Under the pieces are notes generated by a model. The model ran no database searches. It was not told the DNA's origin and worked only from the letters and a program-made list of their open reading frames with translations. DNA of 63,533 nucleotides, the filler included, from Stramenopiles sp. TOSAG23-3 (lineage: Eukaryota): assembly GCA_900128585.1 (NCBI GenBank). It is 13 parts of 13 records of this genome, joined end to end, with 100 filler letters (N's around TTAATTAATTAA, not from the genome) between each part and the next. Parts side by side here need not be neighbours in the genome. Positions count along the whole stretch, not along the records: positions 4,912 to 9,721 come from LT643696.1; 12 more parts are not named here. One strand, given 5' to 3'. Every line of letters starts with the position of its first letter. The first letter of the stretch is position 1. Of the stretch, positions 2,257 to 48,692 are shown piece by piece. The translations under genes were made by a program, and so were the position numbers.

Positions 2257-4809
2257 AGCTTCCAAATTGACTGTGCAAGGATCCCCAGCAGCAAGCGAGA
2301 ACCCCGAAAGAACTATCGTGTAACTTGTGCCTTCGCCTTTATAGCTCGTTGTAACGGCACTTGCACACACAGACATGCCGGTTTTCGGCGACCCGCGCCA
2401 GTTTGGTAGGTTAATTTCGATTACATGTGAAGGTATCAGACTTCTTGTGTACTGAAACGTGTATTTGGCCGTAACAACGCCCGCGCCTGGCCGTGTATCA
2501 TTGAATACAAAACTATCTCCTATCAGTTTCGGTGTGGTAATGGCCATAATATCGTTCACCGTTTTAACGGGAATCAATATCACATCGGAGGAAGTATTGT
2601 GGAATTCACGCGTAACATATTCGTTGTTCTTGACGGAACCATTCACAGGATTAGATAACCCAGCAATTTTAACATGGCACGCAGCAGGAGTATGGACCGT
2701 GCCGTAGATCAAGGCGAGGGTTAGCACGCTGCCACTAAAGTCGGACGTAAAATTGGCGGCGCTACCGTCGCATGAAGTCCACGTTTGCATTCCGCTGGAT
2801 AAAGACCACCCCGGAAGCGCTATGATGATGTGCACCCCATTGCCTATGGGGTGGTCACCGACATATTCAAAGGTGTATGTTATATTTGACTCCTCTGAAG
2901 AACGTGGGTTATCAAATGCAATTGAATCACGGGTTAGAAAGCCTGCTCTGATTTCTGGTGTGTCGACAACAGGGGTGAGTGGCATACTGTCAGGACCAGC
3001 ATCTACTTTGTGCTTGATCAGCTTTGAGTTAGAAGCAATTGGGTCTTTTGGGTTCTTCATACCGGGAAACCGTAACTTGCACAGGGTACCCGAAGGAAGT
3101 ACATCAGCATCCAGTTCAAGGGACATCTCGAGCAGGTCGGAAGACAAGTCTGTCACTGAAAATGCACCGCCCCCACACGATATTACATCAACACTTGCTG
3201 TGCCTGGGTGAGTCCAGCCTGGTAATTCGAGGTTTACTTTGTCTCCACGGCGAAGGTCAACATTGTAGGCAAACTGGTACATAATATTTACGCCGGTAGC
3301 GCCTGTGCTGTTGTTATCAACTTCGACGGCATCGTTCAGCATGGCTCCGCGGTGGGTCCATCGCCCGCTCAAAAATACCGACAGCTTAATTCGTAGTGAC
3401 AAATGCCTGTCTAGATTTTCGACCTTGTACAATAGAGGCCCGTCCCCTACTTTAAACATCCCGTGAATTTCATTGCATTTGGCGTCATCTGAGCAGCGAC
3501 TTCCCAGAGGGATAAGGTCGCCTGGTTTATAACCTTGGACAATCGTGCTACCGACCCACCCTAGTGTTTTTACTTTGGAAACTTCTCCATCGATGGTGTT
3601 GCTCTCGTAGTCGAGGTAGTCCGGGCTCAAAGCGTTCCTATGGTTTCCTACCTTAAAGGTACGAAAACGGCCCATATCCGAACTGACGAAAACATCCGAA
3701 TTAAAAGATACCTCGTCTGGATTGCTCGGAATTAGGCATCTATGTTCATACCCTTTACTGAAAGATTCTGGGGTACATTGGAGACGTAAAGGAGAACAAA
3801 TTACACCAGCATCATTGTCATGGCTACAATGCTCATTGAACAAGAGAGTTGAATTCCGTTTACAGTAATCGATGGAGCCCTCATTTCCCTCACACATAAT
3901 TCTAACCGGCCATATTGGACCAATGCCAGGAGAAAAGTGCGACCCCCCCGATGTCGCAGAAATTGCAGAAGAGTACCCGAGGTCTCTGCAAACGACTTTA
4001 GCGTCCGCAATACCCCACCCTACACCACAAATTGATTTCCACTCTCCATCCCGGAAGGTCTCCACGCGCCCACTACTTTCACTGACACCGCCGACGAGCC
4101 TGTACTGCTTGTTGAATACGGCCTTTGGGATTCGTGATTTTGACTGAAAAGAATGACACTGAATTGCCACATCAAATGCATGGTCGCCATTCCCATCTTG
4201 GATCCACTGAGTCGCGCAATCAGTCAGCTTCTCCGCACCAGGAGTTAGGATACACCGAACGTCGTAGATCCACTGGGGCTGTTCCAAACGTTCAGTGACA
4301 TATTTCGATGCATCCATTAAATAAGTCCCCCCCGTCATTCCTAATTCACGGCATGCAATTTTAGCTTCCGAAGACGAAAAATCACGTCCAGCACCACCTA
4401 CTGTTCCCCAGACACCTTTCCTGAATATTTCTAGACGCCCAGAGTATGCTTGGCCATCGTCCAGCCCGACAAGGCGCAACTGGTGTGGCGAGGCAACTTT
4501 ACACGCCTGTCTCCCCCCAAACATCTGCCCTACGGCAAGAAACGGCTCAGTTTGCCCAGAGAACTGATCGATTAGTAACTCGCTGTCCTTTGGGTGGACA
4601 CGCAGCCGAAAATTGCCTTGCCCAATCTTATAAAACTTGGGCAAATGCGAGTATGGCGGCAACTGAATGCCCCCTATAGTAATATTTAACGATGCGCCAT
4701 GATCACTTAGCAATGCTGGATAATTTTTTAGGACTATGGTGTTGGGAGGAATTCGTAATATTTCCGAACCAGCAAAATCGGATGGATGCTTCAAAACTCC
4801 GAAATAAAT
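1999..4809 (-). CDS. Large surface protein fragment (5'-partial) with two SRCR domains and three ~130-aa beta-sandwich repeats
   Basis: SRCR motifs LRLVG...SGRLEIFRKGVWGTV...AKIACRELG and YRLVGG..ESSGRVETFRDGEWKSICGVGWGIADAKVVCRDLG...CSHDNDAGVIC. The repeat Y-x-F-x-Y...LP(G/N)W...C...NP occurs three times. Frame is open to the contig edge. Confidence 0.85.
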   Translation of the reverse strand: MYFGVLKHPSDFAGSEILRIPPNTIVLKNYPALLSDHGASLNITIGGIQLPPYSHLPKFYKIGQGNFRLRVHPKDSELLIDQFSGQTEPFLAVGQMFGGRQACKVASPHQLRLVGLDDGQAYSGRLEIFRKGVWGTVGGAGRDFSSSEAKIACRELGMTGGTYLMDASKYVTERLEQPQWIYDVRCILTPGAEKLTDCATQWIQDGNGDHAFDVAIQCHSFQSKSRIPKAVFNKQYRLVGGVSESSGRVETFRDGEWKSICGVGWGIADAKVVCRDLGYSSAISATSGGSHFSPGIGPIWPVRIMCEGNEGSIDYCKRNSTLLFNEHCSHDNDAGVICSPLRLQCTPESFSKGYEHRCLIPSNPDEVSFNSDVFVSSDMGRFRTFKVGNHRNALSPDYLDYESNTIDGEVSKVKTLGWVGSTIVQGYKPGDLIPLGSRCSDDAKCNEIHGMFKVGDGPLLYKVENLDRHLSLRIKLSVFLSGRWTHRGAMLNDAVEVDNNSTGATGVNIMYQFAYNVDLRRGDKVNLELPGWTHPGTASVDVISCGGGAFSVTDLSSDLLEMSLELDADVLPSGTLCKLRFPGMKNPKDPIASNSKLIKHKVDAGPDSMPLTPVVDTPEIRAGFLTRDSIAFDNPRSSEESNITYTFEYVGDHPIGNGVHIIIALPGWSLSSGMQTWTSCDGSAANFTSDFSGSVLTLALIYGTVHTPAACHVKIAGLSNPVNGSVKNNEYVTREFHNTSSDVILIPVKTVNDIMAITTPKLIGDSFVFNDTRPGAGVVTAKYTFQYTRSLIPSHVIEINLPNWRGSPKTGMSVCASAVTTSYKGEGTSYTIVLSGFSLAAGDPCTVNLEALANPELLVPPNFHGVKAAVKNATGGYLTEPTRVTTVQSISGGTVAKEVILASSAVFMPPPSISIFSALRASVNCTFVDSPTSVIV

Positions 4810-4811
4810 AT

Positions 4812-4911
4812 NNNNNNNNNNNNNNNNNNNNNNNNNNNNNNNNNNNNNNNNNNNNTTAATTAATTAANNNNNNNNNNNNNNNNNNNNNNNNNNNNNNNNN
4901 NNNNNNNNNNN
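4812..4911. other. Artificial contig linker N44-TTAATTAATTAA-N44; identical linkers at 9722, 14629, 19534, 24437, 29339, 34234, 39127, 44014, 48900, 53782 and 58661 (100 bp each)
   Basis: The same 100-bp structure recurs 12 times and carries stops in all six frames. Flanking contigs decrease monotonically in length. Confidence 0.99.
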
Positions 4912-5066
4912 AGAAGAAGAAGAAAGAAGAAGAAGAAGAAGAAGAAGAAGAAGAAGAAAGAAGAAGAAGAAAGAAGAAGAAGAAGAAGAAAGAAGAAGAA
5001 GAAGAAAGAAGAAGAAAGAAGAAGAAAGAAGAAGAAGAAGAAAGAAGAAGAAGAAAGAAAAGAAGA
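4912..5066 (+). repeat. Imperfect (GAA)n/(GAAA) microsatellite at contig end
   Basis: Directly visible purine-only tandem repeat. Confidence 0.95.
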
Positions 5067-5303
5067 TGATATATAATGATCTCAAACCCACCTATAGTAT
5101 TGGCCCATACTACGGTAGCCGATTATCACCCCCGATGATTCCCATTAAAACGTTTCCCCTTTTCAATCATAGAAACAATTGAAACGAAATTAATTCCATT
5201 CCATACACCCTATTTACCACCCGAACAATAAAAATTATCGTACGAATTGCCTTGCATACCGTCTGACTCCATCCACAACACGACGATGGTGTAACAGCCC
5301 CCC

Positions 5304-6764
5304 ATGCCCACGCTCACCAACTCCCTCCTCGCGGTCCGGCCGTTGGGTCGATTCACCGTGGACGGCAACCCGGCGTACAAGCGTGCGCTGGAACGGGCAA
5401 AGGCGGCCGCGCAGTCGCACTCCAACACGGAAGACCACCAGTTTGAGAGTGCGGACGACTGGGTGTCGAAGCTCCAGCACCGCGTCCTTTCCCTGTACAG
5501 CAACCAGCAGAAGGCGTTCGAGCACCGGCGGCTCGTCCAGCGGCTGTTCCGGGCGTGCGAGCGGGGGCACGCGGACGACGCGCGGCAGATCCTCACCGAA
5601 GACGTCGACGCGATGCACGGGAAAGACATAGCCGGCCTGGCCACCCTGGTCATTGCCGCGATCAACGGGTCCGCGGACGTCATGCAGGTGCTCGTCGACT
5701 TTGGCGCCTTCATGGAGCACACGGACGAGCATGGCAACACGCCCTTCGTCCTTGCCAGCCACCAAGGGGGGTTCCGCATCTGCAGGATCCTGCACGCGGC
5801 CGGGTGCCACGTCGACGCGCAGAACGGGGTCCGCAAGGGCGCCCTGCACTACGCCGTCCTCGCGGGGCGGCTGCGGTACGCCGAGCTCCTCCTGAACGTC
5901 TGCAAGTGCTCCCCGTCGGTAACGGACGTTTTCGGGATGTCCCCCCTGCTCTGCGCCGTGGAGACGGGGAAGGAGGCCATCGTCCGGCTCCTCCTCAAGC
6001 ACGGCGCGTCGCCCGACGAGCGGAACGGCGCGAGCCTCACCTGCCTGATGATCTCCTCGATCAACCGGGAGCCCCGCATCGCCCAGGCGCTGATCGACCA
6101 CGGCGCTGGCGTCGACGCGCTCGACGGCCGGGGGGAGACGGTCCTGATGATGGCCGCCCAGCGCGGGCAGACCGAGTTCCTGGACATGCTCCTTCGGGCG
6201 GGCGCCAACAAAGACCTGACGACGCGCCAGGGGGAGACGGCGCTCGACCTCGCCGTGCTCCTTCGAAAGAAACGCGCCGAGCGCGTCCTTCGCGGTCGCC
6301 GCGCGAGCCAGGAGAGCACCGTCCCGGAGGTCCCCGACGTGGTCGTCCCCCCGACCCCGCGGTACCTTCGAAAGGGCACGGGGCACGTTCGACGGATCAT
6401 CCTCCCGAAGCTGAAGCGAAGGGCCGAGGAGGGGAAGGAGCGGGAAACGGAGAAAGAGACCAAGCTGGAGCGGGAGCGGCGGAGGGCCAGGGAGAAGCGG
6501 TTCAAGCGCGAGCGAAAGCGGGCGCAGACGGGGCTCAAGGTGTCCAGCTACGTGAGGCAGAGGAGGCGGGAGGCCGAGGAGGAGAACAAGAAGAAGGCAA
6601 AGGAGAGGCAGGAGGAGCGGGAGAGGCAGGAGGAGCGGGAGAGGATAGAGCGGGAGAGGATGGAGCGGGAGAAGAAGGAACGGAGGGGTCGGTGGAGGAA
6701 GTTCCTGGCCTGCCTGCAGGTGTGGAAGGGGGGGGGGGGGGGTCCGGGGTTGCCGATGAATTAA
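5304..6764 (+). CDS. Ankyrin-repeat protein with charged coiled-coil C-terminus
   Basis: About seven ANK motifs (GNTPFVLA, ALHYAV, GMSPLLCAVETG, GETVLMMAAQRG, GETALDLA) and an E/R/K-rich tail. The end is uncertain at the G15 run (6728-6742). Confidence 0.9.
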   Translation: MPTLTNSLLAVRPLGRFTVDGNPAYKRALERAKAAAQSHSNTEDHQFESADDWVSKLQHRVLSLYSNQQKAFEHRRLVQRLFRACERGHADDARQILTEDVDAMHGKDIAGLATLVIAAINGSADVMQVLVDFGAFMEHTDEHGNTPFVLASHQGGFRICRILHAAGCHVDAQNGVRKGALHYAVLAGRLRYAELLLNVCKCSPSVTDVFGMSPLLCAVETGKEAIVRLLLKHGASPDERNGASLTCLMISSINREPRIAQALIDHGAGVDALDGRGETVLMMAAQRGQTEFLDMLLRAGANKDLTTRQGETALDLAVLLRKKRAERVLRGRRASQESTVPEVPDVVVPPTPRYLRKGTGHVRRIILPKLKRRAEEGKERETEKETKLERERRRAREKRFKRERKRAQTGLKVSSYVRQRRREAEEENKKKAKERQEERERQEERERIERERMEREKKERRGRWRKFLACLQVWKGGGGGPGLPMN

Positions 6765-6848
6765 CATGAAACAATGGGTTTCCTAGAGCGGGAGAAGAAG
6801 GAACGGAGGGGTCGGTGGAGGAAGTTCCTGTTCTGCCTGCAGGTGTGG
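6663..6848 (+). repeat. 63-bp direct repeat (6663-6725 and 6786-6848, 2 mismatches)
   Basis: GAGCGGGAGAAGAAGG...CTGCAGGTGTGG is present twice. Confidence 0.95.
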
Positions 6849-7732
6849 CCGGTATATAACATATAAACAATAGAATTATTACCTAGTCGAATTAGACTTT
6901 ATATACTCTTACGAAGTCATTATATAGTTTCCTTATTGATATTATACCTATCCTCCTATATAACCTAATATAGTATACTAGTACAGCATACTTAATTATT
7001 AAACGTCCATTATTATACTCAATATTTATTATACTCTATTATTATTAATATTATACCCAGCAGCAGCAGAGAGAAGAGAGAAGAAGATGGTTTAATAAAT
7101 AATAAAAAAAACAAACCAAATAATTAATTTCATAAAAACAAGAAAATTGGCTGTTGTTTAAAACGAAAAATTGGCTGTTAGTTTAAAAGGAAATCAATTA
7201 AATTTAGCTTCGTTCCCCATGTGCATTTTGTACATTTTTAGAGGGTTTGCTAGATTTTCCTTCATGGACTGCGAACTGATCTCAACTGTGGTAATTTTAG
7301 TAACACTTACTTATAAGTCAATAATATTTTAACTAATATATGATATGATTTATAAGGTATGATATGATACTTAAATAACAGCCAATTTTCTAGTTTTTTT
7401 ACTTTATCAATATAATACCCTTGCCACTTAGTCTTGACTATATTTAAGCGTGTAATTAAAATTTATCTCTTCCTCGTATACCACGAAACTGAATCTACAC
7501 TCCTTTTGTCCATTAACGGTTTACGTTCTCATTATTCTTTTAAGTTGCGGCGCAGAGGCGCGATGGCACCGACAGCAGGGGCATGGCGTACCACACTGAT
7601 CTTCGAAACTTTCTCTTTTGTTGTCGTGTCGCGCATCATCCCTCGTCCGCAAATCGGTTTTTCAAAGCCTTACTATTGGAAACCGTCAGTGCTTCTTCCA
7701 TCCTCCCCCCCCCCCCTCGCACACGCGCCTCC

Positions 7733-8509
7733 TCAAGACATCAAGTTCTGCGGCGCCTTGGCCTCCTTCCCCCACTTTGGCACGGGAGTCCCGGTGACTT
7801 TCGAAATCTTCTCTTCGACGTGGCCGAACACGTGCGTGATGGCGTAGTTCGCTACGGATTGCTTGCAGTAGTACTGGGCGTTGAACCAGGACAGGACCGA
7901 AATCATCAAGATGACGGGCCAAGGGACCGTCGTGTTCCCCGTCATAAACCCAATGTACATGAGCCCCACCTCGTACGTGATTCCAGGGGCCCGGACCCAC
8001 GTGTTTAGCGAAGCGCAGACCCGCTTCTGCGTGATCACCTTGACGTACCCATGCTTCACCAGGACAAGCATACAGTAGTCCACCCCGCCAGGGAGACCGC
8101 TGATGAACAGGCAGAGGAAGTTCCGGATTGCCCCCCACTCGTAGTACTGCCCAAAAAATCCTACCGTCGGGATGAACATAAGGTGGTGGAAGTAGTCGCT
8201 GCTTGTGAGCTTCGAGAAGGCAAGCATGTGGTACACGTGCACGGCGTTCACCACGAGGATGGGCCACGGCGAGGCGTTGCCGAAGAGACTATGGTCGTTG
8301 TACACCCGAGAGTCCATCGCATGGACGGGGTCGACGACGACCGTGTAGGCGGACGTCACGCTGGTCAAAACGACGAAGGCGTTCGCGAACGCGTGGATTG
8401 CGAACCACCGCGCCTGCTTTGGCGCGAACAGCACGTCGAAGGCGAGGATAAAGGCCAGCGCGACACAGTTCCCCCCGATAGAACCGAGGTACGGGAGGTC
8501 GAACCACAT
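7733..8509 (-). CDS. TLC (TRAM/LAG1/CLN8) domain membrane protein, 258 aa
   Basis: Multiple TM segments plus the DYFHHLMF motif. The first ATG at 8509 (MWFDLPY) coincides with the switch to GC-rich codons. Confidence 0.75.
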   Translation of the reverse strand: MWFDLPYLGSIGGNCVALAFILAFDVLFAPKQARWFAIHAFANAFVVLTSVTSAYTVVVDPVHAMDSRVYNDHSLFGNASPWPILVVNAVHVYHMLAFSKLTSSDYFHHLMFIPTVGFFGQYYEWGAIRNFLCLFISGLPGGVDYCMLVLVKHGYVKVITQKRVCASLNTWVRAPGITYEVGLMYIGFMTGNTTVPWPVILMISVLSWFNAQYYCKQSVANYAITHVFGHVEEKISKVTGTPVPKWGKEAKAPQNLMS

Positions 8510-8935
8510 TTTATGCGGAGGGTGTGGTGTAAATTTGTGGATGAGTGGCGGGAAGACGATATCGCTTTTGGGTGAGTTTGTGGAAGGATTAGACTCGTTC
8601 GATTGTTTGTTCGACTGTTTGTTCGATTGGTTGATGTATCTGTTTATACATAATTCGTACTTGGTTTCTTCCAATAAAATATTTACACAGGAAGGAGAGC
8701 CATTGATGATAGTAGTTAGTGAGTGCCGTAGTAGTGGTGGTTGTTGGTTGGTCAATGTGATAGATCGGAGGTAATAAGGAGAGGAGGACAAAAAAAATAA
8801 TTAAATTAATAAGATGAAAATAGGATGGAAGAGAAGAGAAGAAGAAGATACATAAAAAAAATAAATTAATTTTTTTTTTCTTCTTCTTTTTTTTTTATTT
8901 ATTATTATTTTATTTTTTTATTTCGACTCTTTCTC

Positions 8936-8939
8936 GTTC

Positions 8940-9015
<76 letters not shown>

Positions 9016-9146
9016 TTCTTTCTTTTGTCTGTTTGTTTGTTTGTTTCTTTCTTTCTTTTGTTTGTTTGTTTGTTTGTTTCTTTTAGATTTCTTTCTTTCT
9101 TTCCTATTCTATCCCTATTCCTATTCTATTCCTATTCTCTTCTATT
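8936..9146 (+). repeat. Compound microsatellite (TTTC)n, (GTTT)n, (CTATT)n
   Basis: Directly visible. Confidence 0.9.
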
Positions 9147-9428
9147 CCTTCTAAGAAGAAACCCACACTTTTGAACTGAAATGGATCAACAACCAACCAG
9201 AACAACTTCTCCTTCTCCCTTCTACTTTAAGAATAGTTTAATTTAAATTAGAATACGGAATCCAAATAGAACAATACAGTTCAATGCTATGTCCATGGTG
9301 CAACAGGCGAATAGCATCAATAATATAATACTTTTGTATATATAGATAAAATCTGACCATTCCACCAATAGCAAATTGCACTGACTGTTTAGTAACAGGT
9401 GTAACGAGTCTCCTATCGTTAAATGATA

Positions 9429-9570
9429 GGCGGTATCGTCCAGTGGTTAGGGTACGTAAAAAAAACACAGAATGATGACCTTTCAGTGTCTCTAACATAT
9501 TCTAAATATTCAATAACTCAGACGGCAGACTTTGAATCTGTAGACCCGGGTTCGAATCCCGGTACTGCCT
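9429..9570 (+). tRNA. tRNA-Gln(UUG) with a 70-nt intron in the D-arm (exon 1 9429-9451, exon 2 9522-9570)
   Basis: The spliced product folds fully: acceptor GGCGGTA/TACTGCC, D-stem GTCC/GGAC (formed only after intron removal), anticodon stem GCAGA/TCTGT with loop CT-TTG-AA, T-arm CCGGG-TTCGAAT-CCCGG, discriminator T. A and B boxes are intact. Confidence 0.93.
9452..9521 (+). other. Intron in tRNA-Gln with spliceosomal-type signals
   Basis: 5' GTACGT, branch-like CTAAC at 9492-9496, 3' CAG at 9519-9521. The boundary is ambiguous by 1 nt (alternative 9451-9520). Confidence 0.85.
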
Positions 9571-9573
9571 TTA

Positions 9574-9579
9574 TTTTTT
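9574..9579 (+). terminator. Pol III oligo-T terminator of tRNA-Gln
   Basis: T6 run 4 nt after the discriminator base. Confidence 0.75.
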
Positions 9580-9644
9580 CCAAACTTAACCATGCTGTGT
9601 GATGTATTGTCTTTTCCGGACTAAATAAAAAACGTTATTCCGTA

Positions 9645-9663
9645 CCCTAACCCTAACCCTAAC
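9645..9663 (+). repeat. Short interstitial telomere-type repeat (CCCTAA)3C
   Basis: ccctaaccctaaccctaac, flanked by non-telomeric sequence on both sides. Confidence 0.85.
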
Positions 9664-9821
9664 TTGGGTGGATCGAGTGATTACGGGTAGCAACATCCAA
9701 CAGGCTTGGATTAAGAAGATTNNNNNNNNNNNNNNNNNNNNNNNNNNNNNNNNNNNNNNNNNNNNTTAATTAATTAANNNNNNNNNNNNNNNNNNNNNNN
9801 NNNNNNNNNNNNNNNNNNNNN

Positions 9822-12800
9822 GCATGTGGGGCAAACGAAGAGTCCTTTACCCATGCGGATGGGTCGAAAACCTGTGTTTGTTCGGAAGGTAGTGAAGCCG
9901 ATACTACCTGTGTCGCTTGTACCGCTAATGCGAACGCTCTTTCGGGTCCAAAGACTGCCATGTGCGTAGTTAATCCAGATGCACTATTGGATGGTGCATG
10001 TCCAGTAGATTGCAAGAGCAAGACGGCCGATACTAACAATTGTATTCTACCATTCGAAGACAGTGTATCGACGCCATGCTGTAAGTTGTTACTTCCTCAG
10101 GAATGCGGTTGCAACGAGAATTTCCATGTAATGAACAACGAATGCGTTGCGTGTACAACCGGCGAGCTACGAGCAGCCGGCGACGATGCCAGTAATGGAA
10201 ATACGTACTGCAATACAGAAGGAATAACGTTGGCCTTTGGTAACAATGGCAACGATGACTTCGTATACGACGGTCAAAACGATCCAAACGTAGCGTTGGA
10301 GGTGGGGCAAACGTATACTTTCTTGAGGGATACCGCTGGCCATCCCATGCGAATTTTGAGTGATTCGGATGTGGTTGGGTTAGTATCATCTGGGCTGGAC
10401 ACCATAACATGGTCTTCTCCTACAACGACTAATTTACCGTCTGCACGAATATGGCAACGCTCCACGGTTCGTGGCGATGATTTTATAGTGTATGGTGGAT
10501 ACAATACCAACGCCGCGTTCGTGTTGGATACGAGTACGATGGTTTGGTCCACGTTAGGCACGGATCCGGGTTCTCGACGCGAACATGTTATGGTGACTCA
10601 TGGTACAGACGTGTACGTTCATGGTGGGTATGGATCGGATTACCTATCGGATGTATGGAAACTGTCTGCTTCCAATGTTTGGTCTTCAATAACCACTAGT
10701 GGTACGGCACCGGCTAGGATGGGACATACCGCTGTGGTGCATGGTGGGGCGATGTACGTGTTTGGCGGGTCTACCACAGGCGGAAGTAACCCGACCTCGG
10801 TTCATAAACTGGATTTAACGACCTACGAATGGTTCGATGTCACAACCACCGGTTCTGCTGCTTCGGGTCGGTACGAACACAGTGCCGTGGTGTACGGCGA
10901 TTACATGATTGTGTATGGTGGTTCGTACAACAAGAATGATGTAAAGAAATTGAATTTGTTAACCTACGAATGGACATCAGTGACGACTACCGGTACAATG
11001 ACGGCACGTGCCTCTCACCAAGCTGGTGTTATAGGGGACTTTATGTTTGTATTTGGCGGGAACAAGGAAGCCAGTAATACGGTAGTGGACGAACTGTGGA
11101 CGTTGAATCTACTCACTAACGAATGGGCACAGCATACGGAAGCAAACACACCATCTGCTCGTCAACGGTTCACTATGGGCGTTCACAACAACGATTTGTT
11201 GATTTATGGTACCGGTGCAACCAACAGCGTTGATTTTCACAAACTTTCTGTAACAATGGGTATTGGCGGTCTTCAATCTTTACCAACCAGTAGTCTCACG
11301 AATGTCGATTCCATCAAAGGTACTTCGAACGTGGTCTATAATTTCAAGAAAGCCGGAACCTACTATTATGTGTGCACATCCCACTTGGGCATGTTCGGTA
11401 AGTTGATTGTGACGTGGCCTGTCTGTAGCATGTCCTCACAAGGGTCTGTTACACTTTCCAAGTCGTGTAGAATTGAAACCTCAATAACGTTAACCGGCGC
11501 CTTAAGCGTCAACACAGCATTGCGATCCAGCGGTCAGAAACTATTGTTGAGTATGACAGATATTACAGCAATTAGCGCGGGAACCTATGCTTTTATTCTC
11601 AACAATGTTGAACTATCGGATATTAGCAGCGCGAATCCATTTGCAACTGGCCAATCCATTACTTTGAACAATGTAGATGTAAAGGGTAATACCCAGACCG
11701 GTAGTTTGTTTGTTTCTTCTGGCCATTTAGTAGCGCAAAACATGAACATTGAAGGCCCATCTTCTCAAATCGTCATTGACGGTACGGGCGATGTATCCAT
11801 TGCCAACGTTGTTTCGGACGGCGTAACTTTAGTAAAACACAGTGCTGGTGCAGTTGTGGCCCGCGATATTAATATAACCAATGGACGATTGGGCGAACTG
11901 AGCGATTCTACGACGGTCTTCGAGGCAATTTTGGCCGATAATTCGGACCTAGTTGCGGTTAACTCGGCAGTCCAAGTGGAGCGTTCATCTTTCAAAACCA
12001 AGGGCATTTCCTTTGATTCAAGTACGTGTACGGAATGTAAAAGGGAATTGATTTTGTCGGGTATTGATTTTGACGGTAGCCAAGTCAGTGTTGTATCGAA
12101 CGCACTGAACAAACCGGTAGTGAAGGTAATTGAAGGAAGCGGAGCAAACGTAGTCTCCGACAATGGTATGTCTTTGTACGCGATCGACGTGAATCTTACT
12201 GCTACTGACGCCATTGTGGAAGAATGTCTACCACATCAGTGTTCGCACAAACCATTGGCTACCTCTTGTAGAGTGAAGGCCGGGAAAGGTACCGAATGCA
12301 TATGCGACGTGGGGGTGGCGACATACAATTTAGAAACACAAGAGCTGGATAAGCAATCTACGGTTGAGGAGATGTTGTCTCTAGCATTTGCTACCGCCGA
12401 TGAAATGGACCGTGTGATAAAGTTGGTGGATAGAAATGTTCGCTATATACCGACACAGGCTACACCACAATCCGCAAAAAGTAACATTCTTCTTATGAAA
12501 CCGAGTAATACTGACGGAGAGATGGAGAGCGAGAAGACCATCTTGGTAAAGCCCGACACTGGTGTCGTGTGTGCAACTTTTCAAACGTGGCTTTGTGCGG
12601 AATTGTCAGCATGTCACTGGGCGAATGGTACGTTAACCGCCGTTTGCGATGGAACACGGATTAGTATGCCACAAAGGCGGTTGAGGTCTTTCATGAAGAA
12701 AAAATATAGATTAAGAGCCGACGCCAATTGCGACTATAATCAGGTTTCGAATTTGAAGGTTCCGTGTGTTTCGGGCAGCATGATTTACAGCAGGTGCGTG

Positions 12801-13379
12801 GAGGACGCGTATTTCTTCCATGATCAGTGCGTTTGTGCTGTTGGTCTGAAAGCCAACGCCAACGGCGATGCATGTATTGACGAAGACGACCTGTGCGAGC
12901 AGAATGAACGAGTAAAAGATGGTCGGTGCGTTGCGTGCGAAGGATTGTTAACGAATAAGGCAGGTGACGTTAAAAGCGGTAGTGATACAACATGCGATGA
13001 TGTTATTTGCAGAGAGGGCTTTTACAGTACCGGGAATGGCGGATGCTTGAGATGCTCGGCAGGTGCGTTTAATCTTGCCGGTGATATCGCGTACGACGCC
13101 AATTCCGGGAATGGAGTAGCGACCACGTGCTGTAATTCAGGGGAGTATGAATTCGACGTAGATATTAATGCTGGTACAAGGACATGTAAAGCATGCGGTG
13201 ACGGGACAGAAGGAATTCGAGTTCGCTTTGGAACTTCTGGTGGCGGATTGAGCTGCTGTAGAGAGGAGAGGTTAACAGTAGACGCGGCTTTAAAATGTGG
13301 AAGGCTGATGGATTATTACCGCAAAGTGTGCCAACCACTCGAGGATACTAATACGTGTCCTGCTCAGAGCTACATTTAG
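9822..13379 (+). CDS. Large Cys-rich, Kelch-propeller and cupredoxin-like protein (5'-partial), probably viral surface/secreted
   Basis: Open from the contig start. About six Kelch blades (H..V....Y(V/I)FGG...W), GHP...YYYVCTSHLGMFGKLIV cupredoxin-like motif, a beta-helix-like middle and CVAC..G...AGD..SG.(N/D)T.C repeats. Confidence 0.85.
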   Translation, partial: ACGANEESFTHADGSKTCVCSEGSEADTTCVACTANANALSGPKTAMCVVNPDALLDGACPVDCKSKTADTNNCILPFEDSVSTPCCKLLLPQECGCNENFHVMNNECVACTTGELRAAGDDASNGNTYCNTEGITLAFGNNGNDDFVYDGQNDPNVALEVGQTYTFLRDTAGHPMRILSDSDVVGLVSSGLDTITWSSPTTTNLPSARIWQRSTVRGDDFIVYGGYNTNAAFVLDTSTMVWSTLGTDPGSRREHVMVTHGTDVYVHGGYGSDYLSDVWKLSASNVWSSITTSGTAPARMGHTAVVHGGAMYVFGGSTTGGSNPTSVHKLDLTTYEWFDVTTTGSAASGRYEHSAVVYGDYMIVYGGSYNKNDVKKLNLLTYEWTSVTTTGTMTARASHQAGVIGDFMFVFGGNKEASNTVVDELWTLNLLTNEWAQHTEANTPSARQRFTMGVHNNDLLIYGTGATNSVDFHKLSVTMGIGGLQSLPTSSLTNVDSIKGTSNVVYNFKKAGTYYYVCTSHLGMFGKLIVTWPVCSMSSQGSVTLSKSCRIETSITLTGALSVNTALRSSGQKLLLSMTDITAISAGTYAFILNNVELSDISSANPFATGQSITLNNVDVKGNTQTGSLFVSSGHLVAQNMNIEGPSSQIVIDGTGDVSIANVVSDGVTLVKHSAGAVVARDINITNGRLGELSDSTTVFEAILADNSDLVAVNSAVQVERSSFKTKGISFDSSTCTECKRELILSGIDFDGSQVSVVSNALNKPVVKVIEGSGANVVSDNGMSLYAIDVNLTATDAIVEECLPHQCSHKPLATSCRVKAGKGTECICDVGVATYNLETQELDKQSTVEEMLSLAFATADEMDRVIKLVDRNVRYIPTQATPQSAKSNILLMKPSNTDGEMESEKTILVKPDTGVVCATFQTWLCAELSACHWANGTLTAVCDGTRISMPQRRLRSFMKKKYRLRADANCDYNQVSNLKVPCVSGSMIYSRCVEDAYFFHDQCVCAVGLKANANGDACIDEDDLCEQNERVKDGRCVACEGLLTNKAGDVKSGSDTTCDDVICREGFYSTGNGGCLRCSAGAFNLAGDIAYDANSGNGVATTCCNSGEYEFDVDINAGTRTCKACGDGTEGIRVRFGTSGGGLSCCREERLTVDAALKCGRLMDYYRKVCQPLEDTNTCPAQSYI

Positions 13380-15627: not shown

Positions 15628-16995
15628 ATGAAACAATTTCAAATTGCCGGAAAAGGTCTTTTCAAGCGTTGCTACTCGTCTTCCAAGCCTTGCTTGGAAT
15701 TTCGTTTTAGAAACTATGAAGGGCACGTTCCTACGCGCCCATCCGAAAGATTAGTACTTGCGGCATCATCAGCTGTTGGAGCATTTTTAGATCCTACTCG
15801 AGCAGACCTTATTGCCACTCTGGGGGAAACGACAGGGGAAGCTTCATTAGGAAAGCTACGGGACAGAATGAGGGACCACCCGGTGGGAAACACTATTCTC
15901 ACGGAAAGGCCTCGCGTGAACACGGCCAGCGTTTGTGTTGAGGAGCTTTTGGGGTTAAAAAAAAATACTTTTGGTTATTCTTACGGGAAATTTTTGGATG
16001 GACACGGTTTCAATCCTGACGACAGACCAGCAGTGCAGTACGTTGACGACGAAGAGTTGGCTTACGTTATTACAAGATACAGAGAAATTCACGATTTTGC
16101 GCACGTCATTTGTGGACTACCCCCGACAGTTTTTGGTGAAGTTGCCTTGAAGTGGTTCGAAATGGCACAGACGAAAGTCCCAATGACAGCTTTGTCCGCG
16201 TTTGTTGGTCCTTTAAGGCCCGATTTGAGCGCTGAAGAAAGGTCTTTATTGCGAAAGTACATGGTTTGGGCGTGCAAGGCTGGCCCAACTTCAGAACTAT
16301 TTCTAAACGTATATTTTGAAAAGTACTATGAGGAACCATTGCATGAGTTGCAGAAACAAGTCTTTGGCCAATCAAACTTTGCCGAAATGCCTCGTGCAAG
16401 CTCTGGAAAAAAGAAAAAACCCGCGGCCCAAAAGAAGAAGAAACCAAAGCAGCGTTCCACCCCCAAGGATGGAGGCGCGCTCAACCCTGAAGGCTCCAAC
16501 GCCTTTAGCAAGATCGACATTCGCGTGGGGCATATTGTCGATGCATGGAACCATCCGGATTCAGATAAGTTGTTCTGTGAATTAATTGATGTTGGGGAAG
16601 AGTCTCCCAGAAGTGTGGCGTCTGGTCTTCGGTCGTATTACAATTTAGACGATATGATTGACCGAAAAGTTTTGGTAGTTTGCAATTTAAAACCAGCAAA
16701 ATTAGCAGGTTTTAAGAGCGAAGGCATGGTGCTCTGCGCTCAAGATGGCGATAAAGTAGAATTTGTAGAGCCACCGCCAAGTGCTGTGATCGGGGAGCGT
16801 ATCATAGTCGACGGGATGTCTGGTGAACCAGAGGCAAATCCAAACAGAGTTAAAAAAAAGAAAATGTGGGAAGCTGTTGCAAAAGACCTAGTTACAAATA
16901 GCGAAAAGGTGGTTTGTTGGGATGGAGCCCCATTGGTGACGCCTTCCGGCGATCTATGCACCTGCCCAACCATTTCAAATAGCGTGGTCTCATGA
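15628..16995 (+). CDS. COQ4: COQ4 ubiquinone-biosynthesis protein fused to a C-terminal EMAPII/Arc1p-type tRNA-binding OB domain
   Basis: COQ4: LGETTG, RYREIHDFAHV...GEVALKWFE. tRNA-binding: IDIRVGHI...HPDSDKLF...IDVGE...VCNLKPAKLAGFKSEGMVLCA. N-terminus is a mitochondrial-like presequence. Confidence 0.9.
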   Translation: MKQFQIAGKGLFKRCYSSSKPCLEFRFRNYEGHVPTRPSERLVLAASSAVGAFLDPTRADLIATLGETTGEASLGKLRDRMRDHPVGNTILTERPRVNTASVCVEELLGLKKNTFGYSYGKFLDGHGFNPDDRPAVQYVDDEELAYVITRYREIHDFAHVICGLPPTVFGEVALKWFEMAQTKVPMTALSAFVGPLRPDLSAEERSLLRKYMVWACKAGPTSELFLNVYFEKYYEEPLHELQKQVFGQSNFAEMPRASSGKKKKPAAQKKKKPKQRSTPKDGGALNPEGSNAFSKIDIRVGHIVDAWNHPDSDKLFCELIDVGEESPRSVASGLRSYYNLDDMIDRKVLVVCNLKPAKLAGFKSEGMVLCAQDGDKVEFVEPPPSAVIGERIIVDGMSGEPEANPNRVKKKKMWEAVAKDLVTNSEKVVCWDGAPLVTPSGDLCTCPTISNSVVS

Positions 16996-19764: not shown

Positions 19765-21961
19765 ATGTTGTTACGACATAGTGGATACAGACTACACCTT
19801 TCAGCATCAAGGTCTAGATTATCTTTACCGAGAAGTCGTTCTTTAAGTTATATTGTGTCTCCTCCTAGGTCAAATTTCCGTAAATTTGGTATATATGGAT
19901 TAGCAGCAGGATCAGCTGCTTTCGCGGCAGCAGTTGTGAGCAACCAAAATACTTTTAGTGATGATGCCCCTGTTGCAGGAACCTTTGGCTCGGGTGGAGC
20001 TCCTCCAGAAGGTACATTGAACCGAATCTTCTCCTTGGACGAGTTTCGCAACGCACCTGAAGGTCGCGTTTGGGTCAGTCTCAATGGTGGTGTTTATGAT
20101 GTCACTAACTTTATGGATGCTCATCCTGGTGGTGCTATGCGTATCATGATGGTTTCTGGTCAAGATTTGCATGCCTTTTGGCGGGTATATCACGAAATCC
20201 ATGACCGACCTCACATTCGTGAGTTACTCGAAGACTATAGGATTGGTAGTTTATCCCCTGAAGATGCCATCATTGTCAAAAATGAGTCTCAATTTGAAGA
20301 TGCATACAAGGATGATCCAGAAAGGCCAAAAGCAACAGAAATGCGCATACCATCAACGAAACCTTGGAATATGGAACCGCCACTTAGAGCTTTGGTGAAT
20401 GATTTTTTAACTCCAAATGACTTATTTTTTGTACGTAATCATAATCCTGTACCCAGCGTTGATATTGAAGATTATGTTTTAGAGATTGAAGCAAATGAAG
20501 ATGCAGGAACGAAAGAATTAAAACTAACTCTTGCAGATCTCAAGACTAAATTTCCCAGACATGAAGTCGTATCTGCTTTACAATGCGCTGGAAATCGACA
20601 AGAAGATTATGTCACCCCTGATCGCCCTTTATATGTCGCACCTCATTGGCGCGGTGGTGCAATTGGTTGTGCAAAATGGGTGGGTGTAAAAGTTCGAGAT
20701 ATATTTCGTGTTGCAGGTTTAGATGTAGATGGTATGTATGTTTTTATCACTTAATTTCAAATTTATTTTCTTTTGTACCAATTTTCGTACCTAACAAATT
20801 TCAAACGTACGACATATTTTTTCACAATATATGGCTTTAGGAAACGTTTCTCATTCTAAAGTGAAAATAGTAAATTTTATTGGAGAAGACCAGGATGAGA
20901 CTGGGACACCGTATGCTGGAGTAATACCTATTGAAAAAGTAGTAAATCCATTTGGTGATGCAATTCTTGTATGTTGTCCACTTAAAAAATTTCAAAGTTT
21001 TTACAAAGAAAATTTTTTACCTAACGATTTTTATTTTTTTAAATATTTTTCCACAATTTTTGCGTATGAGATGAATGATGAAACTCTACCACGTGATCAT
21101 GGATACCCTATTCGTCTCTTAGCTCCAGGACATGCTGGTTGTCGTAATGTGAAGTGGGTTTCTAGAATTATTTTGACTGAAGCTCCGTCAGAGTTGGACT
21201 CTGGATCAAAACTTGATCGTCATTTTGCACCAGATGTAACATTTAAAGGTCACATACGTGAAGGAGAAGATAAACTTCGACTCGATCAAGGTCCTGTAAT
21301 TCAAACTTTACCTGTCCAGTCTGTCATTTCAGAACCTCCTGATAGAGCTACTTTATCTGGTCAAATGGATAGTGTAACTGTAGAGGGTGTAGCTTGGTCT
21401 GGAGGTGGTCGTGGGATATGTCGTGTTGAAGTATCTATTGATGGAGGTGATTCTTATCAAGCTGCTGAGTTATTTAGTGGACCCATCGGAATACCAAGAA
21501 GTAAGAGAGAATTGGTTATTCAAAGACCAAATGATCGTGCCAAAAATCCAGACTCTGCTAATTGTGCTATGAGATCAAATCCTCAATCCGGCATGGGAAG
21601 TCACTGGGCATGGCAACAGTTTCAGCAAAAAATTGCTTTACCGGATCATGTAAAAGAAAAACTTCGAAATGGTGAAAAAGTTGAGTTGGAAATTGTAACA
21701 AATGCAATTGATGGTGATTTTAACTCTCAACCAGAAAAAATGACATCAACATGGAATGTTTTAGGTATTTGTTGTAATCATCAAGCAAGAGTAAAAGTAA
21801 CTTTAGACCCAGAAAAGAAATGTACTGAATGTGTTGATGCTCCAAAAATGCCAGCTGGTGGAAGTCATGTCTGGCCTGTTGAAAACCCAGGATTTACATA
21901 CCGTGTAGATGACAATGTTGCTTGTGGACCCGACGGGTTTCAATGTCCAGGGAGAGCATGA
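19765..21961 (+). CDS. SUOX: Animal-type sulfite oxidase (mitochondrial presequence, cytochrome b5, Moco and dimerisation domains) with two introns
   Basis: VYDVTNFMDAHPGG (b5), FFVRNH, LQCAGNR (Mo-ligand Cys), AYEMN..LPRDHGYPIR, GVAWSGGGRGI.RVEVS. AT-rich insertions at ~20736-20832 and 20969-21061. Confidence 0.92.
20736..20832 (+). other. SUOX intron 1 (alternative canonical boundaries 20732-20840)
   Basis: GTATGT donor, TACCTAAC at 20788-20795, in-frame stop, frame change between exons. Confidence 0.7.
20969..21061 (+). other. SUOX intron 2 (93 nt, apparent GT...TT ends)
   Basis: GTATGT donor and TACCTAAC at 21018-21025. Removal restores DAIL|AYEMN. Confidence 0.7.
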
Positions 21962-47990: not shown

Positions 47991-48692
47991 TTATAAGTTT
48001 ATCTCCGACACTGGGACAGGCTGAAAAGAGCATTTTGATTCGTCGTCTACGAGCATTGGGGAGTACTGAACGCCTGGGCGTTGCAGACTAGGATTCTCTG
48101 GGCAGACACGGTCCGATCCCAGGAGGCGCCCGTTCGATATTGGCCGCACCGTTCTGTAAACGTCCCAGCCTCCCGAGCCCCCACAATCTATAAAAGGTCG
48201 AACATCTAAATCGTAGTGACGGAGCGAAGCTCCCTTTATTACCTGGAAAAGTGCTACCCAGGGCGACGTCGGCGCGCTGGCTTTGTCCGCAGTCCCCCCG
48301 CCTGGCCCATCTGTGATAAGCCGTCCATCTGACGAGTAGCAGCATTGTTGGCTATGGGCCTTGTATTTTCGCCGAAAGCAATTATTCGCCCCCGGGTGGT
48401 ACGCTTCTAACCTCCAAAAGTAAGACATTTCACGTAGAAGGTTCTTTTCCGACTGCCACAAGGAGTCGTTCTCAGCAACACTATCTATGCAAGGACATGG
48501 TGCGTCTGACTCCAGTGCATCAACCCAGGACAAATCTGTGCTCGCCCGTTCGTATTCAATCCAACGCTCGCAACAGTTTACAACCCTCCCCTCCCCCAAC
48601 GTTCCTTCGCCTTGGTTGGACGCACGACACAACCCATTCTTCAACAACTGGACAAAACATACCATCACAAACACTCGCCCAAGAATTCCCAT
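47991..48692 (-). CDS. Secreted stand-alone AMOP-domain (isthmin-like) protein
   Basis: CPC...YHPGANNCFR...QQCCYSSDGRLITDGPGGGTAD...HYDLDVRPF.DC...Y..VRP.SNG...CPENP. First ATG at 48692 with a hydrophobic signal. Confidence 0.85.
   Translation of the reverse strand: MGILGRVFVMVCFVQLLKNGLCRASNQGEGTLGEGRVVNCCERWIEYERASTDLSWVDALESDAPCPCIDSVAENDSLWQSEKNLLREMSYFWRLEAYHPGANNCFRRKYKAHSQQCCYSSDGRLITDGPGGGTADKASAPTSPWVALFQVIKGASLRHYDLDVRPFIDCGGSGGWDVYRTVRPISNGRLLGSDRVCPENPSLQRPGVQYSPMLVDDESKCSFQPVPVSEINL

What the first reader, a model, noticed from the sequence alone, without database searches (positions are those of the whole stretch)
9429..9579. tRNA-Gln(UUG) gene interrupted in the D-arm by an intron with complete spliceosomal signals
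Seen: removing 9452-9521 gives a fully paired 72-nt cloverleaf, and the D-stem GTCC/GGAC is completed only across the junction (between positions 23 and 24). The insert begins GTACGT, has CTAAC about 25 nt before its end and ends CAG. It has no run of 4 or more T, so Pol III could read through to the T6 terminator. Established: eukaryotic tRNA introns normally sit at 37/38 and are cut by the TSEN endonuclease; spliceosomal introns are known in some fungal U6 snRNA and rRNA genes. I know of no established spliceosomal intron in a tRNA gene. Inference: spliceosome-dependent tRNA maturation, or a recent introner or reverse-splicing insertion. Standard tRNA scanners would likely miss or mis-call this gene.
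Basis: partly seen in the sequence, partly recalled or inferred. Interest (0 to 1): 0.92.

Follow-up and report, generated by a model that had tools for sequence, protein, structure and literature searches.

The report
tRNA-Gln gene with mRNA-type intron
A glutamine tRNA gene of an uncultured marine protist is split in its D-arm by a 70-base insert that carries all the signals of an ordinary messenger-RNA intron, which would be a first for a tRNA if the cell really splices it out.

Summary
Window 9429-9451 plus 9522-9570 form a flawless eukaryote-type tRNA-Gln(UUG) with intact A and B boxes and a T6 terminator. The 70 nt between them (9452-9521) start GTACGT, carry TCTCTAAC with the branch A 26 nt before the end, and end CAG at the first AG after the branch. 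These signals fall at the insert's ends by chance about 1e-6 of the time. They match the three mRNA introns I could find in the window (GTATGT, YCTAAC, first AG).

The rival reading is a bulge-helix-bulge intron cut by the tRNA endonuclease. It can be drawn only in relaxed form with a 1-nt shifted boundary, and it is thermodynamically poor: +5.2 kcal/mol, pair probabilities at most 0.017, fold z-score -0.05.

An independent marine DNA run carries the same interrupted gene unchanged. One contig from an oligo-dT RNA library carries it with the insert retained. No spliced junction was seen, no whole genome is held, and both metagenome scans found no eukaryotic relatives. Splicing, paralogues and conservation therefore stay untested.

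Best reading, about 45%: a functional tRNA gene with a spliceosomal-type intron. Main rival: a recently disrupted spare copy.

The parts
9429..9451 (+). tRNA-Gln(UUG) exon 1: acceptor 5' strand, U8, D-stem 5' strand GTCC, D-loop, and the first two bases (GG) of the D-stem 3' strand. The A box TCGTCCAGTGG lies at 9436-9446.
   Evidence: In all 15 metagenome loci holding the same 20-mer (uninterrupted bacterial tRNAs), GG is followed directly by AC.
9452..9521 (+). 70-nt insert with spliceosomal-type signals: 5' splice site GTACGT 9452-9457, branch TCTCTAAC 9489-9496 (A at 9495), 3' splice site CAG 9519-9521 at the first AG after the branch. It has an A8 run at 9458-9465 and no T4 run. It is 30% G+C.
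   Evidence: No other copy in the window. No TSD or TIR.
9522..9570 (+). tRNA-Gln(UUG) exon 2: AC completing the D-stem, anticodon arm (anticodon TTG 9532-9534), variable loop AGAC, T-arm with B box GGTTCGAATCC 9549-9559, acceptor 3' strand, discriminator T at 9570.
9571..9579 (+). Pol III-type terminator TTATTTTTT (T6 at 9574-9579).
20732..20840 (+). Reference mRNA intron 1 of the Mo-co oxidoreductase gene: GTATGT, TACCTAAC, TTTAG, phase 1, 109 nt. The branch A lies 46 nt before the first downstream AG.
   Evidence: Pfam domain split across ORFs 19765-20754 and 20831-21961. Sequence and frame.
20969..21070 (+). Probable mRNA intron 2 of the same gene: GTATGT, TACCTAAC, ATGAG, 102 nt. The 3' boundary is not certain.
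33039..33204 (-). Candidate intron just upstream of the first ATG of the ankyrin/RING ORF: GTATGT, TTCTCTAAC, AACAG at the first AG after the branch. There is no expression evidence.

Best explanation
This is a real, probably functional nuclear tRNA-Gln(UUG) gene of an uncultured marine stramenopile-like protist. Its D-stem, between tRNA positions 23 and 24, is interrupted by a 70-nt intron of the spliceosomal (GT-AG, CTAAC branch) kind.

Inferred mechanism:
- RNA polymerase III starts from the intact A and B boxes, now about 113 nt apart, reads through the intron because it has no T4 run, and stops at the T6 tract.
- The spliceosome recognises GTACGT, the branch A at 9495 and the first downstream AG. 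It removes the intron as a lariat and joins ...TTAGG to ACGGC..., which completes the D-stem.
- Normal end-processing and CCA addition follow.

The intron most likely arrived by reverse splicing or intron transposition into a tRNA transcript or gene, as proposed for the mRNA-type introns of fungal U6 snRNA genes.

Shown: the tRNA, the signals, their match to local mRNA introns, the weakness of any BHB fold, and the presence of the interrupted gene in independent DNA and RNA-library data. Inferred: transcription by Pol III, removal by the spliceosome, the origin of the intron, and function of the gene.
For: 1. The exons are flawless. The cloverleaf is full, with U8, A14, G15:C48, G18 G19, A21, U33, T-loop TTCGAAT, G1:C72 and U73.

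2. The chance of GTAYGT + CTAAC + AG at the insert's ends is about 1e-6.

3. The same signal set is found in the window's mRNA introns. All 3 introns or candidates have GTATGT, YCTAAC and use the first AG after the branch.

4. The insert has no T4 run, whereas the three mRNA introns have 5, 6 and 1. This fits Pol III read-through. It is only mild evidence, because 46% of 70-nt windows of like G+C also lack TTTT.

5. The BHB alternative is poor. The motif costs +5.2 kcal/mol. The BHB-constrained fold is -20.4 against an MFE of -35.1 kcal/mol, and the pair probabilities are at most 0.017. The insert with its flanks folds no better than shuffles, z = -0.05.

6. An independent DNA contig (X1) has 0 differences in 9429-9579 against 5 in 9101-9428. 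If neutral, I estimate the chance of no change at about 0.1 (my arithmetic, not a tool output).

7. CAA is used 124 times, against 105 CAG, in 13 Pfam-supported ORFs. A UUG-anticodon tRNA is therefore needed.

8. There is precedent for spliceosomal introns in a Pol III transcript (U6) and in other non-coding RNA genes: U6 review PMC5855946, passages read.
Against: No spliced junction was recovered. The only RNA-library contig on the locus (X17, record 18, 9408-9543) retains the insert. That library may also hold DNA.

In the predicted MFE the 5' splice site sits inside an 8-bp helix. The tract between branch and 3' splice site is not T-rich, unlike the two Mo-co introns.

The intron consensus rests on only 3 local introns, and only one of them is verified by frame and homology.

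A relaxed hBHBh' can be drawn with the boundary at 9451-9520. Only 0.55% of 200,000 shuffled inserts do as well.

I could not show that this is the only tRNA-Gln(UUG) gene. X1 has about 5.7 units of extra depth in bin 9420-9580 that I cannot explain.

My literature searches found no precedent for a spliceosomal intron in a tRNA gene.
Confidence: 0.45

Rival explanations
1. Insertional pseudogene. A spliceosomal-type intron, or a copy of one, landed in a dispensable copy of tRNA-Gln(UUG). It is not removed, or only inefficiently, and intact paralogues elsewhere decode CAA. The locus would be a snapshot of a failed or neutral intron gain.
For: The only RNA-library contig covering the locus keeps the insert. 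My searches found no published precedent for a spliceosomal tRNA intron. tRNA genes are often multi-copy, and the paralogue question could not be tested. X1 has unexplained extra depth over 9420-9580.
Against: The exons carry no defect at all. The interrupted gene is identical in an independent population whose upstream flank differs at 5 of 328 positions. The insert avoids T4 runs that would stop Pol III. No contig joining the exons without the insert was listed in the DNA run X1. That last point is weak, since contigs show presence and not absence.
Confidence: 0.3
2. Non-canonical tRNA intron of the bulge-helix-bulge kind, cut by the tRNA splicing endonuclease and joined by tRNA ligase, as in the D-arm introns of red algae and nucleomorphs. 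The GT / CTAAC / AG motifs would be coincidental or vestigial.
For: With the boundary shifted by one base (9451-9520) a motif can be drawn. It has two 3-nt bulges (AGG 9449-9451, CAG 9519-9521) around a 4-bp helix (GGTT 9445-9448 with AACT 9515-9518), and 2-bp helices on either side. Only 1,094 of 200,000 shuffled inserts (0.55%) do as well. D-arm introns processed through BHB motifs are documented in Cyanidioschyzon merolae (PMC3728597, passages read). D-loop introns spliced in vivo are documented in Chondrus crispus (PlantRNA 2.0 preprint, passages read).
Against: The motif is energetically unfavourable: +5.2 kcal/mol over the three tRNA arms alone. The best BHB-constrained fold is 14.7 kcal/mol worse than the MFE, and the pair probabilities are at most 0.017. 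The C. merolae paper reports BHB energies of -11.1 to +1.15 kcal/mol and asks for flanking helices of more than two pairs; here each has two. The insert with its flanks shows no excess structure, z = -0.05. A chance of 5.5e-3 for the BHB compares with about 1e-6 for the spliceosomal signals.
Confidence: 0.12
3. Member of a mobile introner family or other small transposon that inserted into the tRNA gene.
For: Introner families are known in marine algae: Ares et al. 2024, PMC11146597, discussion passage read. The two Mo-co introns resemble each other.
Against: There is no second copy of the insert in the 63.5-kb window; the best other match is 12 nt. There are no direct repeats at the ends and no terminal inverted repeats. 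The insert does not align with the three mRNA introns beyond the splice motifs. Only one window could be searched.
Confidence: 0.08

Closest known systems
mRNA-type (spliceosomal) introns in U6 snRNA genes of Schizosaccharomyces pombe and other fungi, and in U1, U2, U5 snRNA and rRNA genes
   Same: A GT-AG intron with a branch site sits in a short, structured, conserved non-coding RNA gene. In the U6 case the gene is transcribed by Pol III. The proposed origin is reverse splicing (U6 review PMC5855946, passages read).
   Different: The host here is a tRNA, which is not part of the spliceosome and has its own dedicated protein-only splicing pathway. The read passages of that review do not list a tRNA among such hosts. 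Splicing is not shown here.
BHB-dependent non-canonical tRNA introns (Cyanidioschyzon merolae; D-loop 20/21 introns of Chondrus crispus; cryptomonad nucleomorphs)
   Same: A nuclear tRNA gene is interrupted in the D-arm, outside position 37/38, is missed by standard scanners, and has perfect exons.
   Different: Those introns are defined by, or processed through, bulge-helix-bulge structures. This one has only an unstable relaxed version and instead carries full spliceosomal signals. The lineage is stramenopile-like, not red algal.
Canonical eukaryotic tRNA introns at 37/38 cut by the TSEN endonuclease
   Same: An intervening sequence lies between the A and B boxes of a Pol III tRNA gene and lacks T runs.
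   Different: The position is 23/24, inside the D-stem. That disrupts the mature domain which the eukaryotic enzyme is recalled to use as a ruler. The sequence signals are those of pre-mRNA introns.
Introner elements of marine algae and fungi
   Same: Short (under 200 nt), non-coding, recently gained spliceosomal introns with strong signals.
   Different: No family of copies, TSD or TIR was detected. Only one window could be searched.

Membership tests
tRNA-Gln(UUG) gene, eukaryotic cytosolic type | Cloverleaf with anticodon UUG and the conserved tertiary nucleotides | tested here: met
   After removal of 9452-9521, ARAGORN calls tRNA-Gln(ttg) and RNAfold gives the cloverleaf. U8, A14, G18 G19, A21, U33, TTCGAAT, G1:C72 and U73 were read from the sequence.
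tRNA-Gln(UUG) gene, eukaryotic cytosolic type | Pol III internal promoter (A box, B box) and oligo-T terminator | tested here: met
   TCGTCCAGTGG at 9436-9446, GGTTCGAATCC at 9549-9559, T6 at 9574-9579. The box consensus sequences are recalled, not taken from a call.
tRNA-Gln(UUG) gene, eukaryotic cytosolic type | A mature tRNA is made and charged | not testable with these tools
   Only contigs of public runs were available. A mature tRNA is too short to appear as a contig.
Spliceosomal (U2-type GT-AG) intron | 5' splice site GTRNGT at the exact exon boundary | tested here: met
   GTACGT at 9452-9457. Local mRNA introns have GTATGT.
Spliceosomal (U2-type GT-AG) intron | Branch-site motif at a suitable distance from the 3' end | tested here: met
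   TCTCTAAC at 9489-9496, with A9495 26 nt before the 3' end. Local introns have TACCTAAC / TTCTCTAAC at 46, 46 and 16 nt.
Spliceosomal (U2-type GT-AG) intron | 3' splice site YAG, at the first AG downstream of the branch | tested here: met
   CAG at 9519-9521 is the first AG after A9495.
Spliceosomal (U2-type GT-AG) intron | Pyrimidine-rich tract before the 3' splice site | tested here: inconclusive
   The 25 nt between the branch and the CAG are A/T-rich without T runs. The insert is 29% T, against 46% in both Mo-co introns.
Spliceosomal (U2-type GT-AG) intron | Removed in vivo as a lariat, giving joined exons | tested here: inconclusive
   No joint at 9451/9522 was listed in 3 RNA runs and 1 DNA run laid as contigs. 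One RNA-library contig retains the insert. Contigs cannot show absence.
BHB / endonuclease-type tRNA intron | Two 3-nt bulges holding the cut sites, separated by a 4-bp helix and flanked by helices of more than 2 bp (definition in PMC3728597) | tested here: inconclusive
   It can be drawn only with the boundary at 9451-9520. The flanking helices have 2 bp each. 0.55% of shuffles do as well.
BHB / endonuclease-type tRNA intron | The motif is a stable or accessible fold of the precursor | tested here: not met
   +5.2 kcal/mol; 14.7 kcal/mol above the MFE; pair probabilities at most 0.017; z = -0.05.
Canonical eukaryotic tRNA intron | Located between positions 37 and 38 | tested here: not met
   The insert lies between positions 23 and 24. 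ARAGORN's anticodon-loop placement needs a mismatched anticodon stem and a G-U-rich D-stem.
Introner / mobile intron family | Multiple near-identical copies; TSD or TIR in the transposon class | tested here: not met
   There is no other copy in the window and no terminal repeats. The genome-wide test was not possible.

The most novel reading that the evidence does not exclude
This is the first tRNA whose maturation depends on the spliceosome. A pre-mRNA-type intron was gained by reverse splicing into the D-stem of the tRNA-Gln(UUG) that decodes CAA. [quoted passage not shown] If so, the two eukaryotic splicing systems are not partitioned by substrate class, and abundant structured RNAs are live targets for intron gain.
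Probability: 0.4. Interest if true: 0.9.

Novelty: new variant of a known kind. Interest (0 to 1): 0.72.

Why it matters
Textbook biology assigns tRNA introns to a protein-only endonuclease/ligase pathway and GT-AG introns to Pol II transcripts, plus a few snRNA and rRNA genes. A GT-AG intron in a tRNA gene that is actually spliced would extend the spliceosome's substrate range to tRNAs. It would give a clean natural example of intron gain in a non-coding, highly structured Pol III transcript, which bears on the reverse-splicing model. It would also expose a blind spot in tRNA gene finders: this gene is missed or mis-called by ARAGORN and barely reaches Rfam's threshold. If it proves to be a dead copy, it is still a datable record of an intron insertion event in an intron-poor protist.

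Tried and rejected
- **Whole genome.** None is held for this window. The searches for an intronless paralogue, for other interrupted tRNAs and for copies of the insert could not be run.
- **Metagenome scan, exon 2.** A 24-mer gave 0 matches. The same pattern in viral contigs also gave 0.
- **Metagenome scan, exon 1.** A 20-mer gave 15 loci, L001-L015. All are uninterrupted tRNA genes that look bacterial: by my reading 14 Gln(UUG) and 1 His(GUG). None is a relative of this organism. They show only that this D-arm sequence normally runs straight on into AC.
- **Reads.** Read laying on 4912-9721 listed no joint at 9451/9522 in X15, X16, X17 (RNA) or X1 (DNA). All four runs are contigs, so this is not evidence that splicing is absent. 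X15 and X16 do not cover the tRNA at all. Periodic N masks kept me from laying the Mo-co introns in the same call as a positive control.
- **Unmatched contig end.** The remaining 65 nt of the X17 contig do not fit the laid stretch and were not shown, so I could not interpret them.
- **Other tRNAs in the window.** A T-arm/acceptor search and ARAGORN with introns up to 400 nt found only this gene.
- **More mRNA introns in the window.** Frame-aware scans gave only the Mo-co gene as a clear case. The triple motif as such is not enriched in the window, 15 observed against 10.7 in shuffles. Its weight comes only from sitting exactly at the tRNA junctions.
- **Similarity of the insert to local introns.** None beyond the motifs.
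- **T4 avoidance.** Not significant on its own, P about 0.3-0.7 depending on the model.
- **Literature.** Searches for a reported spliceosomal intron in a tRNA gene found none. Subscription journals and supplements were not searched.

Full report
**Observation**

Window 9429-9451 (23 nt) and 9522-9570 (49 nt) together make a tRNA-Gln with anticodon TTG at 9532-9534. It has a 7-bp acceptor stem, the D-stem GTCC/GGAC, a 5-bp anticodon stem and a 5-bp T-stem.

In a script that cut out 9452-9521, ARAGORN called tRNA-Gln(ttg) and RNAfold returned the cloverleaf at -29.8 kcal/mol. The conserved positions are all present: U8, A14, G15 with C48, G18 G19, A21, U33, T-loop TTCGAAT. G1:C72 with U73 is the eukaryotic rather than the bacterial Gln pattern; that attribution is recalled, not from a call.

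The A box TCGTCCAGTGG (9436-9446) and the B box GGTTCGAATCC (9549-9559) are intact. TTATTTTTT follows at 9571-9579.

The insert is 70 nt. It begins GTACGT, has TCTCTAAC at 9489-9496 with the presumptive branch A at 9495, 26 nt before the end. It ends CAG, which is the first AG after that A. The boundary can be slid by one base (9451-9520) without changing the product.

Scanners behave as predicted:
- ARAGORN with default settings finds nothing in the whole window.
- With its intron option it forces a 71-nt intron into the anticodon loop, at the price of a mismatched stem.
- Rfam aligns only 9506-9563 at 30.5 bits, against a threshold of 29.

This is the only tRNA gene in the 63.5-kb window.

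**Is it real and more than chance?**

A DNA contig from an independent marine metagenome run (X1, record 8) spans 9101-9579 with the insert in place, so the structure is not an assembly artefact. That contig shows 5 differences in 9101-9428 and none in 9429-9579.

I used the window's own frequencies of GTAYGT (5.7e-4 per position), CTAAC (4.2e-4) and AG (0.052). The chance that an insert carries all three in the right places at either permitted boundary is about 1e-6. The triple motif is not enriched in the window as a whole, 15 observed against 10.7 in shuffles. Its weight comes entirely from coinciding with the tRNA junctions.

**The organism**

No genome is held. The window's proteins occur only in metagenome-derived sets. 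The best named relatives of its MTHFR are oomycetes and ochrophyte algae at about 50% identity, with unnamed metagenomic relatives at 64-66%.

The stretch is held by marine and seawater metagenome runs of 12 studies. I therefore take it to be an uncultured marine stramenopile-like protist.

The genome is gene-dense and intron-poor, with long uninterrupted ORFs on both strands. CAA is used 124 times and CAG 105 times in 13 Pfam-supported ORFs, so a UUG-anticodon tRNA-Gln is needed.

**Local mRNA introns**

The Mo-co oxidoreductase gene is split. Pfam Oxidored_molyb positions 1-93 lie in ORF 19765-20754 and positions 119-165 in ORF 20831-21961.

- **Intron 20732-20840.** It restores frame and homology. 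It reads GTATGT...TACCTAAC...TTTAG.
- **Intron 20969-21070.** It reads GTATGT...TACCTAAC...ATGAG. By the first-AG rule it has the same 46-nt branch-to-3' distance. Its 3' boundary is uncertain, because the last nine bases would encode a plausible AYE.
- **Candidate 33039-33204, minus strand.** It reads GTATGT...TTCTCTAAC...AACAG and sits just before the first ATG of the ankyrin/RING ORF.

The tRNA insert's GTACGT / TCTCTAAC / CAG therefore fits this genome's intron grammar. The grammar rests on three cases, and only one of them is verified.

The insert differs in one suggestive way. The three mRNA introns contain 5, 6 and 1 runs of four or more T, any of which would stop Pol III. The insert contains none and is A-rich on the sense strand. 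On its own this is not significant.

**The endonuclease alternative**

D-arm introns in nuclear tRNA genes are known in red algae and nucleomorphs. There they are processed through bulge-helix-bulge motifs (PMC3728597, passages read), or were shown to be spliced (PlantRNA 2.0 preprint, passages read).

With 9451-9520 a relaxed hBHBh' can be drawn:
- a 4-bp helix, GGTT (9445-9448) with AACT (9515-9518), one pair being G-U;
- 3-nt bulges AGG and CAG holding the cut sites;
- 2-bp helices on either side.

Only 0.55% of 200,000 shuffled inserts do as well, so this is not negligible. But the motif costs +5.2 kcal/mol relative to the three tRNA arms alone. The best fold constrained to it is -20.4 against an unconstrained -35.1 kcal/mol. 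Its pairs have ensemble probabilities of at most 0.017.

The C. merolae motifs are reported at -11.1 to +1.15 kcal/mol, with flanking helices of more than two pairs. The insert with its flanks folds no better than dinucleotide shuffles: z = -0.05, and 89 of 200 shuffles fold at least as well. I rate this rival at about 0.12.

**Mobile-element alternative**

The insert has no other copy in the window. It has no direct repeats at its ends and no terminal inverted repeats. It does not align with the local introns beyond the motifs. A genome-wide test was impossible.

**Expression**

I laid three RNA runs and one DNA run on 4912-9721. The periodic N masks forced that range.

In the oligo-dT library X17, a 202-nt contig at depth 5 covers 9408-9543 with the insert retained, one extra A in the A-run and one other difference. 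Apart from short matches to repeats and low-complexity stretches, X17 covers only the neighbouring gene at 7777-8550. That hints at an intron-containing transcript rather than bulk DNA carry-over, but the tool's own caveat that DNA can be present stands.

The contig's remaining 65 nt do not fit the laid stretch and were not shown. No joint across 9452-9521 was listed in any run. Because all four are contigs and a mature tRNA is too short to assemble, this says nothing about absence.

**Relatives**

The exon 2 24-mer found nothing. The exon 1 20-mer found 15 uninterrupted tRNA genes that look bacterial. In all 15 the GG is followed directly by AC, as the predicted junction requires. No eukaryotic relative was recovered, so conservation of the splice signals could not be tested.

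**Literature**

A review of U6 snRNA records spliceosomal introns in U6 (a Pol III transcript), U2, U5 and U1 snRNA genes and in rRNA genes, with reverse splicing as the suggested origin. The passages I read do not list tRNA among such hosts (PMC5855946).

Six searches found no report of a spliceosomal intron in a tRNA gene. The library lacks most subscription journals, and supplements were closed.

**Verdict**

That the insert is a spliceosomal-type intron sequence sitting precisely in a perfect tRNA gene is, in my judgement, about 80% likely. That it is removed by the spliceosome to give a working tRNA is inferred, and I put it at about 45%.

The rivals are:
- a recently disrupted, dispensable copy, about 30%;
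- endonuclease processing through a weak BHB, about 12%;
- an introner-like mobile element, about 8%. This reading partly overlaps the others.

The finding is a new variant of known kinds: spliceosomal introns in non-coding RNA genes, and ectopic tRNA introns. It deserves follow-up with raw-read junction searches, the organism's full tRNA set, and tRNA-seq.

Noticed in passing
window 9645-9662: Three tandem CCCTAA units (telomere-type TTAGGG repeat on the other strand) lie about 75 nt downstream of the tRNA terminator and about 300 nt upstream of the Kelch-repeat ORF (9960-13379). It is the only such run in the window. It may be a promoter element or an interstitial telomeric repeat.
   Followed up: partly
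window 4812-58760, about every 4.9 kb: The window holds regularly spaced N masks (44 N, 12 bases, 44 N), plus N blocks of 161 and 86 bases at 43065 and 47821. They limited which stretch could be laid with reads and hide the 5' end of the MTHFR gene.
   Followed up: yes
window about 7005-7648: A repeat with summed contig depth of about 3,000-8,000 in DNA run X1, against about 5 for the flanks. It has many joints and loose ends in X1 and X17. It is a high-copy or low-complexity element, possibly shared with other organisms.
   Followed up: no
window 15628-16995 (+): One ORF fuses a Coq4 ubiquinone-biosynthesis domain to a tRNA-binding (Arc1p/EMAP-like) domain. The identical 455-aa protein is in public metagenome sets. 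The relatives listed carry one domain or the other, not both.
   Followed up: partly
window 20732-20840 and 20969-21070: The two introns of the Mo-co oxidoreductase gene resemble each other (ATTTCAAA, TACCTAAC, ATATTTTT-CACAAT). Both have 46 nt from the branch A to the first AG. They may be duplicated or belong to an introner-like family. The second one's 3' end would remove a plausible AYE tripeptide.
   Followed up: partly
window 9408-9543, run X17 record 18: The RNA-library contig carrying the unspliced tRNA gene stops matching at 9543, in the variable loop, and has 65 further letters that fit nothing in 4912-9721. This could be a variant locus, a chimera, or a joint to sequence beyond 9721.
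   Followed up: no
window 9501-9513 versus 9532-9544: 13 nt of the insert are 85% complementary to the anticodon loop and the 3' strand of the anticodon stem. With six such pairs found in 201 nt, this is probably chance.
   Followed up: partly
window 1999-4524 (-), 26025-28907 (-), 47991-48692 (-): ORFs with SRCR, teneurin-type EGF and AMOP domains. By my recollection these are animal-like extracellular domains. They sit in a genome whose MTHFR is closest to stramenopiles.
   Followed up: no
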